A stretch of DNA of 32,000 nt from Candidatus Saccharimonadota bacterium (GTDB lineage: Bacteria; Patescibacteriota; Saccharimonadia; Saccharimonadales; SZUA-47), in contig JAGONL010000001.1 of the NCBI GenBank assembly GCA_017993025.1, positions 12,750 through 44,749 of the forward strand, written 5' to 3'. This document shows positions 22,855 through 28,220 of the stretch, piece by piece (the stretch's first letter is position 1; each line of letters opens with the position of its first letter). The translations under genes were made by a program, and so were the position numbers. The notes under the pieces are model-generated. The model did not search any database. It worked only from the letters and a program-made list of their open reading frames with translations, and had not been told where the DNA came from.

Positions 22855-23565
22855 ATGCTCCCAAACGTCTTTGTCTATTTACTCAACACTCTTATTATTC
22901 AGCTCAGCATTATTGCTTTCTGTCTACCGTTTTTTGTTATTTATATGCGCTCTTCAAAGCACGCTACGGGACATAATATAAGCTGGCATATTCAAAATTT
23001 CTTTTCAAGCAAACAGGCCAACGCACTAATTTTCTGCTGGGCACTTGCAGAAGCCTTTATCTGGTTTGTTATACCAGAATTTTTACTGCTACTTATGGTT
23101 TTTATGCGGGTACGCCGCAAACGCCAGCTATTAACTTATGACATCCTCGGCACAGTCGCTGGTACAATATTGGCACTTAATCTTAATCTTTCAGATTCCG
23201 CCATTGAATCTCTTCCATACGTACAACAAAACATGATTACCCAGGCACATGTGTGGTTCACAAATATAGATGTTTGGGCATTACTGCACCAACCATTTTC
23301 TGGTGTGCCGTTTAAAGTTTTCAACCATGTCGCTCTTGATCATGACGTAAACATTTTCTTATACATCCTTCTTGCTGTTGTAGTTAGGGTAAGCCGTTAT
23401 GCACTATTTTACTTCTTATTAAAAGGTATCTATAGACATATACATAAATTTGTCTATAAAAACTATACGGCATTATTCATCATAGCTACAGCCATATTCG
23501 CAGTACTTCTATACGATGTATACCAAAGTTTCGGACCTGACTACGTTATAAGAACCGGCCTCTGA
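22855..23565 (+). CDS. Membrane protein, possibly DedA/YqaA (VTT-domain) like
   Basis: ALAEAFIWFVIPEFLLLL resembles the A.AE....P.P.E.LL box of YqaA/DedA proteins (recall only). Confidence 0.5.
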   Translation: MLPNVFVYLLNTLIIQLSIIAFCLPFFVIYMRSSKHATGHNISWHIQNFFSSKQANALIFCWALAEAFIWFVIPEFLLLLMVFMRVRRKRQLLTYDILGTVAGTILALNLNLSDSAIESLPYVQQNMITQAHVWFTNIDVWALLHQPFSGVPFKVFNHVALDHDVNIFLYILLAVVVRVSRYALFYFLLKGIYRHIHKFVYKNYTALFIIATAIFAVLLYDVYQSFGPDYVIRTGL

Positions 23566-23575
23566 AATACTGATT
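23563..23575 (+). repeat. Partial copy of the IR core (tgaaatactgatt)
   Basis: A 13-nt exact match to 24978-24990 inside IR-L, in the same orientation. It overlaps the stop codon of 22855-23565, at the left edge of the accessory block. Confidence 0.5.
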
Positions 23576-24307: not shown

Positions 24308-24457
24308 ATGAGCACATCAGAAATATTGAAATCAGTTGGCGGAACCCTAAAGCCCATGCCTAATGCCAAGATAACCAAAGAGGTTAGGGAATACCGGGCT
24401 GCATTTAAGCGTGGTGAAAAAATCCTAGCAGACCGCCAAAAGAAACAATCGCTTTAA
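24308..24457 (+). CDS. Small basic protein (49 aa), translationally coupled to the kinase
   Basis: ATG 24308 directly abuts the kinase stop (TAAATG). Translation: MSTSEILKSVGGTLKPMPNAKITKEVREYRAAFKRGEKILADRQKKQSL. It is absent from the ORF track because it is under 60 aa. Its stop overlaps the stop of the convergent gene. Confidence 0.45.
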   Translation: MSTSEILKSVGGTLKPMPNAKITKEVREYRAAFKRGEKILADRQKKQSL

Positions 24458-24993
24458 ACTATATACCCTATACTTCCAGCAATTCTTCTACGTTTTATCC
24501 TTGATGTTTTAGCTTGTTCAATTTCAAAATCACTAACAACTTCATCAATCCACGAACGCGGGCCACGCCGTTGTTGTCTAGAAACACTATGACCAATAGA
24601 TAGACTTCGTAGTCCTGTCCACATTGAACCGAAAACAACGGTGGCTTGTTCTGTCGCGGTGGCAATAAGATAATCACTGCCCACATCTCTATATGGACCG
24701 TGCTCAAGTACTGCAACTACTTCTTGGTCTGCAAGGGCTAATTGAGTATATAAATCGCCCAAAGTATAGATTCTAGGGTAAGTTTGACGTCTAAAGCTTG
24801 TTTGATTAATATTATAATCTCCGTCATAACCAGTTTGTTTATTTACAAAGTTGGCGCCTACAAAAGCTATTGGATTTGACCCATCTAGTCCAAGTAATTG
24901 ATTCATAGATTTAAGTATATTGGTTGAGCACGTGCAGGTGCAAGCATAAGGGTAAAGAGAATAGCCAAACCACCCCTTGAAATACTGATTCAT
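24454..24993 (-). CDS. Hypothetical protein, X family (179 aa; start uncertain)
   Basis: Uninterrupted ORF. The first 11 codons (MNQYFKGWFGY) lie inside the 43-bp inverted repeat and inside a tandem repeat unit, so the true start could be the internal Met at codon 30. Fragments of paralogs occur at 20357-20402 and 27475-27522. Confidence 0.55.
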   Translation of the reverse strand: MNQYFKGWFGYSLYPYACTCTCSTNILKSMNQLLGLDGSNPIAFVGANFVNKQTGYDGDYNINQTSFRRQTYPRIYTLGDLYTQLALADQEVVAVLEHGPYRDVGSDYLIATATEQATVVFGSMWTGLRSLSIGHSVSRQQRRGPRSWIDEVVSDFEIEQAKTSRIKRRRIAGSIGYIV

Positions 24994-25004
24994 GACAATC
25001 AGCC
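24962..25004. repeat. IR-L: left copy of the 43-bp perfect inverted repeat
   Basis: tagccaaaccaccccttgaaatactgattcatgacaatcagcc is the exact reverse complement of 27464-27506. Confidence 0.95.
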
Positions 25005-25131
25005 CGCAGTAGCCCCTGTAGCCAAACTAGCCCCTGTAATACTGATTCAAGACAATCATCCATCCTTTTATTTGTAGCTAGGTCAGCCTCTGCAAACTCT
25101 TAAAGACAATCAGAGCCTGGTCGAGTAAAGC
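24962..25131. repeat. Three tandem ~57-bp units (first is IR-L; second and third degenerate)
   Basis: Units start with tagccaaac (24962), tagccaaac (25019) and tagctaggt (25075). Each contains gacaatca(g), at 24994, 25051 and 25105. Unit 2 is about 85 percent identical to unit 1 over its first 41 nt; unit 3 is about 60 percent. Confidence 0.7.
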
Positions 25132-25246
25132 CCTGAGCTAAGTCAAAAGTACTCAGTTATTAAACTCACTTTTGACCGCTTGCGTCCTCAGGGCGCGACT
25201 AGTCTCTGGTTAGTTTGTCTTTAAAGATGTTTCTGCAGACAGGCTG
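25084..25246. repeat. 163-nt long imperfect hairpin / palindrome
   Basis: Nested pairs: cagcct.ctgca.aac (25084-) / gtttctgcagacaggctg (-25246); ttaaagacaa / ttgtctttaa; gccctgag (25130-25137) / ctcagggc (25187-25194); gtcaaaagt (25142-25150) / acttttgac (25168-25176). The apical loop is 17 nt. Confidence 0.65.
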
Positions 25247-25258
25247 CGGGGCGTTTTG

Positions 25259-25316
25259 CATACTTTTGCACCTGTAGGGAAAAGTATGACTGGGTCTAAG
25301 GGCAGGTAACGCCCTT
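25259..25316 (-). other. Conserved hairpin pair A/B, left-arm copy (candidate structured leader or protein-binding module)
   Basis: On the minus strand: hairpin A is AAGGGC-gttacct-GCCCTT and hairpin B is CATACTTTT-ccctacaggtgc-AAAAGTATG. A homologous pair with compensatory stem changes lies at 27269-27325. Confidence 0.55.
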
Positions 25317-25352
25317 TGATTGCGCTTATAGTCGCTTACTAAATTATTTTAT

Positions 25353-26081
25353 TTAAAAAAACCGTCTATTCCAAGAATTTCCCGTCGCCTGCAATCGCCC
25401 ACCATGCACCAGCTTTTGCAAATACCCAGACGTTAGTTTTTCAGACAACCCAACACTTTTAGCTATTTCATGTACAGATATTTGTGGTTTGCCTCTCACA
25501 ATTTTCTCTATTTCACTCATCCGCTCATTCATCCGCGCAGTGCGGCTTCTGTTTGCCTGTGCCTGCGCCGTACCTATATGCTCTCTAGCCCAAAGTAGCC
25601 TTGCTGCGTTTATTTCCTCCGCCGTTAGTTCTAATACTTTTTGCGGAATATCCTTAAGGTACTTTGGGTCATGCACCGCCGGCACTACTACTGGTGTCGT
25701 TGGTGGGATTTCCACCACAGGTAGTGTACTTTCAACCTTCGATTCCGAACCCGCATCATCTTCTACCTTCGTACTTCTATCTTCGGTCTTATCAACTGGC
25801 TCGTCTTTTACTGGGGGCTTTGGAGGTTCGGGAGCTGGTACAGGTTCTTCTACTATTGGTTCTGGCGTGGGCTGTGGTGGTTCGATAGTTGGTTGCGGTA
25901 CTATTTCAGGTTCTGGGGTCGGTGCAGGGGTTGGGGTTGGGGGTGGCTCAGGAGCGGGGTCAACCGGCGGCGGAGGTGTCTCTTCGACTACAGGTTCTTC
26001 GACTTTCGACTCCGATCCCGCCGACTCTTCAACCTTAGACTCTGTGACTTTCGACTCTGTTGCTACCGGCTCGTCTTGCAT
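25353..26081 (-). CDS. Pro/Glu-rich protein with a C-terminal winged-HTH-like domain (242 aa)
   Basis: The N-terminal two thirds are low complexity (SKVEE repeats, PAPEPPPTPTPAPTPEPE). The C-terminus ISVHEIAKSVGLSEKLTSGYLQKLVHGGRLQATG looks like a wHTH recognition unit. TATAAT (26093-26088, minus strand) lies 6 nt before the ATG. Confidence 0.65.
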   Translation of the reverse strand: MQDEPVATESKVTESKVEESAGSESKVEEPVVEETPPPPVDPAPEPPPTPTPAPTPEPEIVPQPTIEPPQPTPEPIVEEPVPAPEPPKPPVKDEPVDKTEDRSTKVEDDAGSESKVESTLPVVEIPPTTPVVVPAVHDPKYLKDIPQKVLELTAEEINAARLLWAREHIGTAQAQANRSRTARMNERMSEIEKIVRGKPQISVHEIAKSVGLSEKLTSGYLQKLVHGGRLQATGNSWNRRFF

Positions 26082-26139
26082 AAGCGTATTATATATTATT
26101 TTTGAAATCCAGATTTAGAAAATTTAAATGTTCAAAAAA

Positions 26140-26207
26140 CGTGAATTTGAAGTACTTTTGCATTATATTCACGGTATATTGACATTTTAGCGTGAATTTA
26201 TTATACT
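26140..26207 (+). promoter_or_regulatory. fic promoter overlapped by CGTGAAT operator-like repeats
   Basis: TTGACA (26179-26184), 17-nt spacer, TATACT (26202-26207), then 6 nt to ATG 26214. cgtgaat occurs at 26140-26146 and 26191-26197 (the latter inside the spacer), and its inverted partner attcacg at 26167-26173. Confidence 0.6.
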
Positions 26208-26213
26208 TAAGCT

Positions 26214-27092
26214 ATGATAAACAATAATGACCAGGCGCACATCAAAGCACTCAAAAAAGAATATGAGTCACTTATTGATGGGAAAGAATCCTTATTAAAA
26301 ATACTTAAAGAGACTGAGTTACCCGAGCTTGTTTATAACTCAAATGCCATAGAGAATTCTACACTCACACTCAAAGAAACCGAAAAAATCCTGCTTGAAC
26401 AAGAGGTAATGCGCGACGTATCAGTTCGAGAACTTTTTGAGGCAAAGAATCTTGCTCGTGTACTAGATTATTTGGAATCAAAACCTAAACTAGAACTTTC
26501 TGCAGAGAATATACTTCTACTGCATAAAATGCTAATTGGTGGTATTGACGACGCTATAGCAGGTAGACTCAGAAAAGAGCATGAGTATGTTAGGGTAGGA
26601 AATCATATCGCTCCAGCACCAGAACATGTAGAGCAACTTTTAAACAATCTAATCGATAATTTTAATAGTAACCACGATTTATACTACTTGGATAATATTG
26701 CATATTTTCATGTTGAGTTCGAACGAATTCATCCTTTCTGTGACGGTAACGGGCGTATAGGTAGAGTTCTTATAAATTTACAGTTAGCATCCTTAGGATA
26801 TCCTCCATTAATAATCCGCAATAAGGGCAAACACAGTAATTATTATCCAGTATTTCAAGAATATACAGACAGGGGTGTTTACAGCGGTATGTCTGATCTG
26901 CTGGTACTAGCACTTTCTGAGTCATTACATAAGAGATTGGCGTACATGAAAGGGCTAAATATTATTACTTTGTCAGAATTTTCTAAGCAGAATAATCTTG
27001 CATTAAATGGGCAGTTAAACTCCGCTAAACGGCAGACAATACCGGCATTCAGAGAAAAAGGTGTCTGGAAAATTGGTATCACTCTAACATAA
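26214..27092 (+). CDS. fic: Fic-domain protein (class II, with an N-terminal inhibitory helix)
   Basis: The Fic core motif is HPFCDGNGRIGR. The N-terminal SNAIEN fits the (S/T)xxxE(G/N) auto-inhibition motif. Confidence 0.85.
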   Translation: MINNNDQAHIKALKKEYESLIDGKESLLKILKETELPELVYNSNAIENSTLTLKETEKILLEQEVMRDVSVRELFEAKNLARVLDYLESKPKLELSAENILLLHKMLIGGIDDAIAGRLRKEHEYVRVGNHIAPAPEHVEQLLNNLIDNFNSNHDLYYLDNIAYFHVEFERIHPFCDGNGRIGRVLINLQLASLGYPPLIIRNKGKHSNYYPVFQEYTDRGVYSGMSDLLVLALSESLHKRLAYMKGLNIITLSEFSKQNNLALNGQLNSAKRQTIPAFREKGVWKIGITLT

Positions 27093-27196
27093 AAAAATGG
27101 TCAATAAAATTTAAAGAACCTGACTTGTGTAATCCAACACTGCCGAGGTCCTTATGAGGCTATTATATCTGAGGATATAGGTAATTTCAAGATGGC

Positions 27197-27217
27197 GAAA
27201 AGGACTGCTGTCCTTTT
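27197..27217 (+). terminator. Hairpin terminator after fic (A-tract/T-tract, possibly bidirectional)
   Basis: aaaaggac (27198-27205), loop tgct, gtcctttt (27210-27217). Confidence 0.5.
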
Positions 27218-27268
27218 AATCCTGCTTTAATACAATTTATTTTTTTAGATATTTTGGTTGTTTGGTTT

Positions 27269-27325
27269 GTGGCTGTTTCGGCGCCACACCCCCGACTATC
27301 TTTTCCCAACAGGTGCAAAAGATAG
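27269..27325 (+). other. Conserved hairpin pair A/B, right-arm copy
   Basis: Hairpin A is GTGGC-tgtttcggc-GCCAC (27269-27287). Hairpin B is CTATCTTTT-cccaacaggtgc-AAAAGATAG (27296-27325). It is followed by caaaagccccgcaccctgt, as in the left arm. Confidence 0.55.
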
Positions 27326-27463
27326 CAAAAGCCCCGCACCCTGTTGAATATACATAACTCATGACAAATACCACCCACTTCTGCGTGGCAAGAACAACAA
27401 GCGTCCAATAAGCAATTTAAAAGTTATATGCTTTTGGATTAGCTTGCCACTTGATTCAGAAGT

Positions 27464-27506
27464 GGCTGATTGTCATGAATCAGTATTTCAAGGGGTGGTT
27501 TGGCTA
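27464..27506. repeat. IR-R: right copy of the 43-bp perfect inverted repeat
   Basis: ggctgattgtcatgaatcagtatttcaaggggtggtttggcta is the reverse complement of 24962-25004. Confidence 0.95.
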
Positions 27507-27522
27507 CAATAAATATCTGTAA
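27475..27522 (+). pseudogene. Truncated X-family 5' end (MNQYFKGWFGYNKYL*)
   Basis: The ATG and the first 10 codons are identical to those of 24454-24993. A stop follows after 15 codons, once the repeat ends. Confidence 0.6.
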
Positions 27523-27560
27523 ATGTAGGAAATATCACCAAACAGGTTTAATATTTAATT

Positions 27561-28220
27561 ATGAAAATGTCCGAGAAACCAAAAGACTTACGGCCAAGGG
27601 AAAAGTTGCAGAAAAAGGGCGCTCAGTCTTTATCCGACCTCGAGCTATTACAAGCACTTATTGGTAGTGGAAACAAGCAAGCCGATGTTAGCAAAATTGC
27701 CCAAAGCGTGAAAAAGCTACTTCAAAAACACGGTGCAGACATTTCATACAAGCAACTTACAGAAGTAACTGGCATGGGTGAAGCGAAAACTACGGAAATA
27801 TTAGCTGCCTTTGAATTATCAAAAAGATATTTAATTGACAGCGAGGCGCCAATAATTGACTCACCCGAAAAAGTCGCAGAACAACTATCTGACATCCGAG
27901 ACAAGAAGCAAGAATACTTTGTATGTTTGACTCTGGACGGTGCTAACAGGCTTATCGCAAAACGTGTAATAACAATAGGTACGCTAAACTCTAGCCTTGT
28001 CCACCCGCGTGAAGTCTTTGCAGATGCCATAACCGACCGCGCCGCAAGCATAATAGTCGCCCACAACCACCCCAGCGGCACTTTAAGCCCGTCTGAAGCG
28101 GACCGGAATATTACTGTTAAACTTCATGAATCAGCAAAACTACTTGGAATAAATCTTACGGACCACATAATCATCACAAAAACGGAATACTACAGTTTTA
28201 CAGATGACAACAAGCTGTAA
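27561..28220 (+). CDS. radC: RadC-like JAB/MPN-domain protein (UPF0758)
   Basis: N-terminal LRPREKL...LSDLELLQALIGSG, a helix-hairpin-helix-like segment, and the C-terminal JAB motif HNHPSG...PSEADRNIT. Confidence 0.85.
   Translation: MKMSEKPKDLRPREKLQKKGAQSLSDLELLQALIGSGNKQADVSKIAQSVKKLLQKHGADISYKQLTEVTGMGEAKTTEILAAFELSKRYLIDSEAPIIDSPEKVAEQLSDIRDKKQEYFVCLTLDGANRLIAKRVITIGTLNSSLVHPREVFADAITDRAASIIVAHNHPSGTLSPSEADRNITVKLHESAKLLGINLTDHIIITKTEYYSFTDDNKL

What the first reader, a model, noticed from the sequence alone, without database searches (positions are those of the whole stretch)
25259..27325. Two hairpins in the inverted arms show compensatory base changes: candidate structured leader RNA or protein-binding module
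Read on the strand pointing towards each outward ATG, the arms share a module of about 90 nt.

**Hairpin A.** AAGGGC-gttacct-GCCCTT (left, 25298-25316) versus GTGGC-tgtttcggc-GCCAC (right, 27269-27287). The stem sequences differ but pairing is retained.

**Linker.** An A/C-rich linker, agacccagt versus acccccga.

**Hairpin B.** CATACTTTT-ccctacaggtgc-AAAAGTATG (left, 25259-25288) versus CTATCTTTT-cccaacaggtgc-AAAAGATAG (right, 27296-27325). Three consecutive stem pairs are flipped (ATA/TAT to TAT/ATA). All three flips are compensated, and 11 of 12 loop nucleotides are conserved.

**Downstream.** caaaa(c)gccccgca(g/c)cctgt follows in both arms.

Covariation in the stem with a conserved loop is the classic signature of a selected structure. 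The module lies about 150-270 nt upstream of the X-family starts. I cannot match it to a riboswitch or RNA family I know.
Basis: seen in the sequence. Interest (0 to 1): 0.6.

Follow-up and report, generated by a model that had tools for sequence, protein, structure and literature searches.

The report
Head hairpins of a Saccharibacteria repeat
The two hairpins are real and kept by compensatory mutations, but they are the front end of a roughly 250-300-base folded repeat scattered between genes of many Saccharibacteria, not a control region for the neighbouring genes.

Summary
Observation confirmed. Both hairpins sit exactly where stated, and the 22-nt core of hairpin B occurs twice in the window against 0.01 expected.

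The module (hairpin A, linker ACCCnnG, hairpin B, A-rich spacer) is not specific to these two arms or to the "X" genes. It is the head of a modular intergenic repeat: head, then a ~170-nt rod-like hairpin, then a tail ending GGCTACA.

- **Copies:** the 0.8-Mb genome holds 21 copies. Twelve carry this hairpin B and nine carry one of two unrelated hairpins in the same slot.
- **Range:** the hairpin-B type occurs in 22 of 31 genomes of the family and 30 of 151 sampled genomes of the order. The exact core occurs only in Saccharibacteria among ~185,000 species.
- **Covariation:** significant in hairpin B in two sequence sets, and in the rod.
- **Location:** copies lie beside unrelated genes, in either orientation, and often at contig ends.
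- **Polymorphism:** one orthologous site is filled in one species and empty in a congener.
- **No partner found:** no Rfam family, promoter, Y1/RAYT transposase, TnpB or reverse transcriptase goes with it.
- **"X-family starts":** these are the rod's 3' arm.

Best reading: an undescribed REP/BIME/BOX-like structured repeat. Function and active strand are unresolved. This scan has flagged the same class before, including on another contig of this genome.

The parts
25298..25316 (-). Hairpin A of the left (minus-strand) element: 6-bp G/C-rich stem, 7-nt loop. It is the first feature of the repeat and begins 37 nt after the stop of the wHTH gene.
   Evidence: A hairpin of variable sequence ends 6-9 nt before hairpin B in nearly all of 74 distinct copies. 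Median MFE is -9.9 against -5.3 +/- 3.1 for random 44-mers.
25289..25297 (-). C/A-rich linker (AGACCCAGT). Family consensus is ACCCnnG.
25259..25288 (-). Hairpin B (type B1) of the left element: 9-bp lower stem, 3-bp upper stem, tetraloop TACA, 2-nt bulge.
25077..25258 (-). A-rich spacer CAAAACGCCCCGC, then rod D of the left element (subtype 'M3'). Rod D has a long imperfect outer stem, an inner 8-bp helix, an unpaired GACGCAAGCG, a terminal hairpin and an unpaired TTAG.
   Evidence: Fold -85.6 kcal/mol, z -4.1. Other M3 copies lie on contigs C6, C12, C39.
24962..25061 (-). Two extra 43-nt units (25019-25061, 86% identical; 24962-25004, 100% identical). They copy the 3' arm of an M2-type rod. 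The distal unit is the 'perfect 43-bp inverted repeat' and contains the ATG taken as the start of ORF X.
27269..27287 (+). Hairpin A of the right (plus-strand) element. It begins 177 nt after the fic stop.
27288..27295 (+). C-rich linker (ACCCCCGA).
27296..27325 (+). Hairpin B (type B1) of the right element.
27326..27508 (+). A-rich spacer CAAAAGCCCCGC, rod D (subtype 'M2', about 27330-27505) and tail GGCTACA (27502-27508). The 3' arm of the rod, 27464-27506, is the right half of the 43-bp perfect inverted repeat.
   Evidence: Fold -86.6 kcal/mol, z -5.9. Eleven M2-type copies in the genome give 58 consensus pairs, 22 of them with double compensatory changes.
25353..27092 (.). Context, not part of the repeat: divergent wHTH (25353-26081, minus) and Fic (26214-27092, plus) genes enclosed by the two head-to-head elements.

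Best explanation
**What it is (shown).** The two hairpins are the head module of a modular, structured, interspersed intergenic repeat of Saccharibacteria, about 250-300 nt long. The order of its parts is:
1. Hairpin A, whose sequence varies.
2. A C-rich linker, ACCCnnG.
3. Hairpin B, with a U-rich 5' arm and an A-rich 3' arm.
4. An A-rich spacer.
5. A ~170-nt rod-like hairpin with conserved unpaired motifs.
6. A tail ending GGCTACA.

The window holds two copies head-to-head. Each starts shortly after the stop codon of one of the divergent wHTH and fic genes, which is why they look like inverted arms.

**How it works (inferred).**
- The element is a non-autonomous, semi-selfish repeat that is gained, lost and recombined between intergenic sites.
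- Its stems stay complementary because a folded single strand, either transcript or single-stranded DNA, is the active form.
- Hairpin B is a structural slot rather than a sequence-specific operator.
- The most likely effect on the host is at transcript ends. In this genome the head abuts the 3' end of the upstream gene. On the opposite strand the rod is followed by a U4-U6 tract, like an intrinsic terminator.
For: **Copy number and range.**
- 12 B1-type copies in the 0.8-Mb genome, with 0 hits for the control pattern.
- 9 further copies have the same architecture but hairpin B replaced by type B2 or B3.
- The covariance model finds it in 22 of 31 genomes of the family, at 1-19 copies each, and in 30 of 151 sampled genomes of the order.
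- The exact core occurs only in Saccharibacteria MAGs among ~185,000 species genomes and in no viral contigs.

**Structure.**
- Covariation in hairpin B is significant.
- A variable hairpin A is present in nearly all of 74 distinct copies.
- Both arms fold the same way, into A, B and the rod.
- The rod has 22 of 58 pairs with double compensation within this genome alone.

**Repeat-like behaviour.**
- The arms are mosaics of interchangeable modules.
- Similarity between copies begins exactly at the 5' foot of hairpin A.
- Many copies lie at contig ends of MAGs.
- Five tail-to-tail pairs occur in this genome and five more in G001 (shown).
- G001 carries about 640 extra nt, including an element pair, between a gene stop and a tRNA-Asp promoter. 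Its congener G024 has only 14 nt at that site.
- der is followed by an element in three genera but directly by pth in most others.

**Neighbours.** Neighbouring genes are unrelated in both high-copy and low-copy genomes.

**Head position.** Hairpin A begins from about 7 nt inside the called upstream ORF to about 300 nt past its stop in 16 of 21 copies, where that gene is co-oriented.

**Terminator-like feature.** On the reverse strand the rod is followed by U4-U6 in all three B types.
Against: - No enzyme that could move the element was found.
  - Y1/RAYT is absent from this genome and from G001, G005 and G017. Where it is present (G003, G006) it is not next to elements.
  - TnpB is in 1 of 31 genomes and reverse transcriptase in 5 of 31.
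- No target-site duplication or exact empty site could be defined, because congeneric species are only about 70-75% identical.
- Order-wide conservation of a 60-nt module at 50-65 bits, and a head 85-92% identical between genera, are stronger than expected for a purely selfish repeat.
- The orientation bias towards gene 3' ends holds in this genome (16:5) but barely in relatives (19:16).
- The forward strand has no U-tract after hairpin A, hairpin B or the rod, and fic has its own terminator-like site at 27191-27212.
- The active strand is unresolved.
- All genomes are MAGs and no transcript data were available.
Confidence: 0.6

Rival explanations
1. A domesticated cis-acting RNA module. The element is kept because, as part of mRNAs, it ends, insulates or stabilises transcripts in gene-dense genomes. 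Hairpins A and B would protect the 3' end of the upstream message. A reversed copy (rod plus U-tract, then A plus U-run) would terminate incoming transcription, and tail-to-tail pairs would act as bidirectional terminators.
For: - The head follows the stop of a co-oriented gene in 16 of 21 copies here.
- The rod is followed by U4-U6 on the reverse strand in all B types.
- Tail-to-tail pairs between genes are frequent.
- Conservation is order-wide and covariation is strong.
Against: - Orientation is nearly random in relatives (19:16).
- About 80% of sampled genomes of the order lack a B1-type copy, and most genes lack the element.
- fic already has a terminator-like hairpin upstream of the element.
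- A ~270-nt multi-domain fold is far more than a terminator needs.
Confidence: 0.25
2. A REP/REPIN- or IS200/IS605-like single-stranded-DNA element. Hairpins A and B at the element's end would be the recognition site of a hairpin-specific (HUH/Y1 or unknown) enzyme that excises and inserts the element. The GCTACA tail (GTAG on the other strand) would be the cleavage motif.
For: - A conserved 'loop' sits on freely covarying stems.
- The element boundary lies at the foot of hairpin A.
- GCTACA ends the element and precedes hairpin A in about 10 of 74 copies.
- Inverted pairs resemble REPINs.
- Y1 genes exist in some relatives.
Against: - Y1/RAYT was not found in this genome (85% complete), nor in G001 (19 copies, 98% complete), G005 or G017.
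- The Y1 genes of G003 and G006 have no element within 1.5 kb.
- The element is about 10 times longer than a REP.
- Three unrelated hairpins share the B slot.
Confidence: 0.15
3. Portable homology or recombination sites. The elements would flank accessory or defence cassettes (here wHTH-Fic next to RadC and a type I R-M system) and promote cassette exchange by homologous recombination after natural transformation. Alternatively the 43-bp perfect inverted repeat could drive inversion of the 2.5-kb segment.
For: - A perfect 43-bp inverted repeat lies at the outer ends of otherwise diverged arms.
- Elements sit at synteny breaks downstream of der and glmS.
- Elements cluster in accessory regions, including one near a Drt2-like RT in G001.
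Against: - Many copies lie between housekeeping genes.
- The only Fic homologue in the family (G014) shows no element nearby.
- Only one tyrosine recombinase gene occurs in the genome, and none near the elements.
- Recombination would not explain compensatory changes in stems.
Confidence: 0.1
4. One reading: a gene-specific structured leader or riboswitch, or an operator for a DNA-binding dimer such as the adjacent wHTH protein, controlling the outward X and radC genes.
For: - The module lies 236-266 nt upstream of the outward ATGs.
- Hairpin B is a palindrome with a conserved centre.
Against: - The module lies next to unrelated genes in all genomes.
- X is single-copy and its 'start' is repeat sequence.
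- There is no Rfam match and no promoter-like site in the arms.
- Stem sequences differ between copies within one genome while pairing is kept, which a single dimeric DNA-binding protein would not tolerate.
Confidence: 0.03

Closest known systems
REP / BIME / REPIN elements of proteobacteria (with RAYT transposases)
   Same: Multi-copy, strictly intergenic and hairpin-forming. Built as mosaics of interchangeable modules. Often found as inverted pairs between convergent genes. A GTAG-containing motif lies at one end.
   Different: About 10 times longer, with three distinct structural domains. No RAYT/Y1 gene in this genome or in the highest-copy relative. Copy number is tens, not hundreds. Conservation spans an order of CPR bacteria.
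BOX, RUP and SPRITE repeats of Streptococcus pneumoniae; ERIC/IRU; Correia/NIME of Neisseria
   Same: Modular (boxA-B-C-like), 100-300 nt structured intergenic repeats with no transposase of their own. They are thought to act on transcripts through stability or termination.
   Different: No sequence relation. No terminal inverted repeats plus target duplication as in RUP or Correia. The rod has conserved unpaired motifs and covarying inner helices. Comparison is from my own knowledge of these families, not tested with a tool.
MITEs (non-autonomous DNA transposons)
   Same: Small, repeated, and polymorphic in presence between species. The arms of the long hairpin could be read as inverted repeats.
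   Different: The whole element is asymmetric: head at one end only. No target-site duplication and no parent IS were found.
Subterminal hairpins of IS200/IS605 and integron attC sites (folded single-stranded DNA substrates)
   Same: The structure is conserved while the stem sequence is free. The hairpin lies at the end of the unit.
   Different: No Y1 transposase, TnpB or integron integrase context. Copies occur in both orientations rather than in a one-way cassette array.
Riboswitches / cis-regulatory leaders (Rfam)
   Same: Covarying stems with conserved unpaired bases.
   Different: Not tied to any gene family. It usually lies after genes rather than before them. No Rfam hit even at E <= 10.

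Membership tests
Gene-specific leader RNA / riboswitch | Found upstream of one gene family or pathway, in a fixed orientation. | tested here: not met
   Neighbours are unrelated. The head follows a gene's stop in 16 of 21 copies here. Orientation is mixed in relatives.
Gene-specific leader RNA / riboswitch | Match to a curated RNA family. | tested here: not met
   Rfam gives only a tRNA in the window at gathering threshold. Nothing relevant appears at E <= 10 over 24900-27600.
REP/BIME/REPIN-RAYT | Many intergenic copies of an imperfect palindrome, often in inverted pairs. | tested here: met
   21 copies in 0.8 Mb, including 5 tail-to-tail pairs.
REP/BIME/REPIN-RAYT | Cognate RAYT (Y1_Tnp, PF01797) in the same genome, typically flanked by REPs. 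| tested here: not met
   0 hits in this genome, G001, G005 and G017. Hits in G003 and G006 have no element nearby. This genome is only 85% complete.
REP/BIME/REPIN-RAYT | Unit of 20-40 nt with a conserved 5' GTAG. | tested here: not met
   The unit is 250-300 nt. GTAG occurs in the reverse of the tail and in the B1 tetraloop region, but not as a 5' cap of each hairpin.
MITE | Terminal inverted repeats plus target-site duplication. | tested here: inconclusive
   The rod arms are inverted repeats, but the head lies outside them. GCTACA flanks both ends in only some copies. No clean duplication was seen.
MITE | Presence/absence polymorphism at orthologous sites. | tested here: met
   G001 against G024 at the site upstream of tRNA-Asp. 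The site downstream of der also varies.
MITE | A related autonomous IS with the same ends. | tested here: not met
   No ORF-bearing version was seen. Y1, TnpB and RT searches were negative or uncorrelated. DDE families were not searched.
Intrinsic (Rho-independent) terminator | G/C-rich hairpin immediately followed by a U-tract on the transcribed strand. | tested here: inconclusive
   Forward strand: hairpin A is followed by ACCC, hairpin B by CAAAA, and the scan finds no site. Reverse strand: the rod is followed by U4-U6 in all B types and was called once by the scan at 25231-25251.
Retron / DRT ncRNA | Lies directly upstream of a reverse transcriptase gene. | tested here: not met
   No RT in this genome; RT in 5 of 31 family genomes. 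One G001 copy lies about 400 nt upstream of a Drt2-like RT, but the other 18 copies do not.
TnpB/IscB guide (omega) RNA or IS605-derived PATE | Associated TnpB/IscB or Y1 gene. | tested here: not met
   PF07282 is in 1 of 31 family genomes, one without strong element hits.

The most novel reading that the evidence does not exclude
The head-rod-tail elements would be a new kind of structured mobile or replicating nucleic-acid element of CPR bacteria, one that spreads without any known transposase. Two routes are conceivable. It could use a self-acting RNA/ssDNA activity of the conserved rod core. It could instead hijack the natural-competence and recombination machinery, with hairpins A and B as the recognition head. 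Order-wide conservation of the fold would then reflect the needs of its own propagation.
Probability: 0.1. Interest if true: 0.85.

Novelty: new variant of a known kind. Interest (0 to 1): 0.5.

Why it matters
Saccharibacteria have some of the smallest and most gene-dense bacterial genomes. This one still spends about 0.7% of its DNA on a large, elaborately folded repeat, and the head and fold of that repeat are conserved across an order.

- **If it acts on transcripts:** it would be a lineage-specific solution for ending or insulating messages in organisms whose terminators and RNA biology are almost unknown.
- **If it is mobile:** it moves without any recognisable transposase.
- **Practical consequences:**
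  - The repeat breaks MAG assemblies at contig ends.
  - It creates false gene starts, here the first 11 codons of ORF X.
  - It mimics inverted repeats around cargo genes. Annotators should know about all three effects.

Tried and rejected
1. **Pseudoknot between the hairpin-B loop and the linker.** GGTG/CACC or GGCG/CGCC complementarity exists in some copies. It is absent in the left arm and in the GTTG copies, and it would overlap the stem, so it is not supported.
2. **Which strand is active.**
   - The reverse strand has the lower MFE in 20 of 21 elements.
   - Shuffle-corrected z-scores are mixed: right arm -5.9 forward against -7.5 reverse, left arm -4.1 against -3.6, A+B module better forward.
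   - G-U against A-C exceptions in the rod are 18:13. The question stays unresolved.
3. **Partner enzymes.** Y1/RAYT, TnpB and reverse transcriptase showed no association.
4. **Empty-site comparison downstream of glmS.** Synteny is not conserved, so it was uninformative.
5. **DNA-level empty sites within genus g2.** The species are too diverged for exact boundaries.
6. **Fic-wHTH plus arms as a composite mobile unit.** The only family homologue of Fic (G014) shows no element in the sequence available.
7. **Conserved neighbour gene in low-copy genomes.** None was found.
8. **Recent inter-genus transfer of whole elements.** Full-length identity is about 70-80%, like the housekeeping genes. Only the head reaches 85-92%.
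9. **Literature.** Four full-text searches found no description of this family.
10. **Formal covariation count for hairpin A.** I did not attempt it, because its length varies too much for the MAFFT alignment to stay in register. Per-copy folding was used instead.
Full report
**1.
- Reading the window gives hairpin A at 25298-25316 (minus strand) and 27269-27287 (plus strand).
- Hairpin B is at 25259-25288 and 27296-27325.
- The 22-nt core of hairpin B with up to three mismatches occurs twice in 32 kb against 0.01 expected.
- Each A+B stretch folds into the two hairpins, with z -3.65 and -2.52.
- No Rfam family matches, either at gathering thresholds over the window or at E <= 10 over 24900-27600.

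**2. It is not peculiar to these two arms.**
- The hairpin-B core occurs 12 times in the window's own 806-kb assembly (84 contigs, 85% complete), on contigs C12, C31, C32 (twice), C33 (twice), C39 (twice), C57, C58 (twice) and C74. The control pattern gave none.
- Every copy has the same layout:
  - a G/C-rich hairpin A of variable sequence;
  - a linker of consensus ACCCnnG;
  - hairpin B;
  - then CAAAAnCCCCGC.
- A pattern search found the core in 11 of 60 relatives.
- I built a covariance model of hairpin B plus its flanks.
  - It hits 22 of 31 genomes of the family at 1-19 copies each. That count includes weak hits in the unpublished genomes G007 and G019; no other claim here rests on them.
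  - It hits 30 of 151 sampled genomes of the order, in more than 20 families.
- The exact core is found only in Candidatus Saccharibacteria / Saccharimonadales MAGs among about 185,000 species genomes, and in no viral contig.

**3. The structure is under selection.**
- On 34 copies from 12 genomes, hairpin B is 93.7% paired.
  - Five pairs show changes on both sides.
  - 27 cells are double-compensated, against 7.4 +/- 2.4 in shuffles (0 of 500 reach this) and at most 6 in slid controls.
- Sixteen further copies from 12 other genomes of the order give 89.8% paired and 18 against 7.4 +/- 1.8. That alignment is fitted to the model and so leans towards the structure.
- The '12-nt loop' is better read as a 3-bp upper stem, a tetraloop and a 2-nt bulge.
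  - Most copies have ACC-TACA-GGT.
  - Others have GCC...GGT (a G-U pair), GAC-TACA-GTC or GTC-TACA-GAC.
  - One distant copy is a plain 8-bp-longer hairpin with a GTCG loop.
- Hairpin A has a dozen unrelated stem sequences, yet a hairpin ends 6-9 nt before hairpin B in nearly all of 74 distinct copies. The median MFE is -9.9 kcal/mol, against -5.3 +/- 3.1 for random 44-mers of the genome.

**4. The hairpins are the head of a larger element.**
- Both arms fold the same way: A, B, then a ~170-nt rod.
  - Right arm 27262-27512: -86.6 kcal/mol, z -5.9.
  - Left arm 25060-25322 (minus strand): -85.6 kcal/mol, z -4.1.
- The rods of the two arms are different subtypes. BLAST shows that heads and rods are shuffled among copies.
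- Rods that at first seemed to lack a head are in fact preceded by a hairpin A and by a different hairpin in the B slot:
  - B2: CTTCATTTCTTT-GGTCGY-AAAGAAATGAAG;
  - B3: CTCTCATTTTTT-AATCGC-AAAAAACGAGAG.
- That brings the genome's total to 21 elements, about 0.7% of the assembly.
- Eleven elements with the same rod subtype give 58 consensus pairs, 22 of them with double compensatory changes.
- The element ends with (G)GCTACA, which also precedes hairpin A in some copies.
- The window's '43-bp perfect inverted repeat' is the 3' arm of the rod.
- The ATG within that arm was taken as the 'X-family start'.
  - X (24454-24993) is single-copy and only its first 32 nt recur.
  - On the right arm the same ATG opens a 15-codon frame.

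**5. Where the copies sit.**
- Neighbours include glmS, der, gltX, a sortase and others in this genome.
- In low-copy genomes of other families the neighbours include RNase III, tsaD, a tRNA ligase, an AddA-like helicase and an R-M methylase. No gene is shared.
- In this genome, hairpin A begins from about 7 nt inside the called upstream ORF to about 300 nt past its stop in 16 of 21 copies, where that gene is co-oriented.
- Among relatives the ratio is only 19:16.
- Five tail-to-tail pairs occur here, and five more in G001.
- Many copies lie within 400 nt of contig ends in MAGs, as expected for a repeat.
- The promoter scan finds no promoter-like site inside the arms. It does find a terminator-like site for fic at 27191-27212, upstream of the element.

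**6. Gain and loss.**
- Upstream of a tRNA-Asp gene, G001 has about 640 nt, including a tail-to-tail element pair, between a gene's stop and the conserved tRNA promoter region. Its congener G024 has 14 nt there.
- der is followed by an element in this genome, G003 and G010, but directly by pth in most other genomes.
- Exact boundaries and target duplications could not be defined, because congeneric species are only about 70-75% identical.
- Between genera, whole elements are about 70-80% identical while the head reaches 85-92%.

**7. Partners sought and not found.**
- Y1/RAYT (PF01797):
  - none in this genome, G001 (19 copies), G005 or G017;
  - the copies in G003 and G006 have no element within 1.5 kb.
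- TnpB: 1 of 31 genomes.
- Reverse transcriptase: 5 of 31 genomes. One G001 element lies about 400 nt upstream of a Drt2-like RT, which I take as coincidence within an accessory island.
- One tyrosine recombinase gene in the genome, on another contig.
- The Fic gene has one homologue in the family, with no element nearby.

**8. Reading.**
- Shown:
  - the hairpins are a selected structure;
  - they form the head of an order-wide, multi-copy, modular intergenic repeat;
  - they are not a leader of X or radC.
- Inferred: the element behaves like REP/BIME or pneumococcal BOX-type repeats. It is non-autonomous, gained and lost, and recombining. A folded single strand is its active form, and its likely effect is on transcript ends.
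- The active strand could not be settled.
- Rivals, in order of my credence:
  1. a domesticated transcript-end module;
  2. a single-stranded-DNA element with an unidentified hairpin-specific enzyme;
  3. portable recombination sites around accessory cassettes;
  4. far behind, a gene-specific leader or operator.

**9. Novelty.**
- Four full-text searches found no description of this family, and it is not in Rfam.
- Earlier notes of this scan describe the same class in Saccharibacteria, including on another contig of this genome. They agree with my reading but are not independent evidence.
- I rate it a new variant of a known kind (structured interspersed repeats).
  - It is much larger and more elaborate than REPs.
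  - It is conserved across an order of CPR bacteria.
  - It has no recognisable mobilising enzyme.

**Caveats.**
- All genomes are MAGs.
- ORF calls are mechanical.
- Copies within a genome are related, so shuffle tests overstate significance.
- E-values from the covariance model are rough.

Noticed in passing
window 24454-24993 (minus strand): The first 11 codons of ORF 'X' (179 aa) come from the repeat's rod arm. The true start is more likely the internal ATG about 29 codons downstream (MNQLLGLDG...). X has no Pfam match and is single-copy in the genome.
   Followed up: partly
window 27191-27212 (plus strand): Terminator-like hairpin with a T-run, about 100 nt after the fic stop and upstream of the repeat. 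It is probably fic's own terminator.
   Followed up: no
window 23553-23575: A partial copy (83% identical) of the rod 3'-arm unit overlaps the stop codon of the gene at 22855-23565, at the edge of the accessory block that holds a zeta-like kinase, X, wHTH-Fic, RadC and hsdMS.
   Followed up: no
L178 (G024:C11, about 23290-23560): Two tRNA-Asp-like sequences lie in tandem. The first is interrupted after its anticodon arm by an insert of roughly 130-190 nt before the T-arm resumes. This could be an intron or a disrupted duplicate.
   Followed up: no
L182:1339-2658 (minus strand; G001:C7): A 439-aa reverse transcriptase whose best match is antiviral Drt2 (300 bits, below the 390-bit cut-off). It lies in a region dense in the repeat, and one element sits about 400 nt upstream of it.
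   Followed up: partly
L128, L130, L132, L133 (G003); L129, L131 (G006): Several diverged Y1-transposase-like ORFs (about 206-212 aa, one of 293 aa) occur in two relatives. They are not recent duplicates of one another at the DNA level, and they are not flanked by the repeat.
   Followed up: partly
L109 / G000:C31 9645-9670: Downstream of glmS, a solitary hairpin A plus ACCC linker (ATGGGC...GCCCAT ACCCG) sits immediately before a complete element. A second case of tandem hairpin A units is on C39 near 24400. This suggests insertion or recombination at the A/B junction.
   Followed up: no
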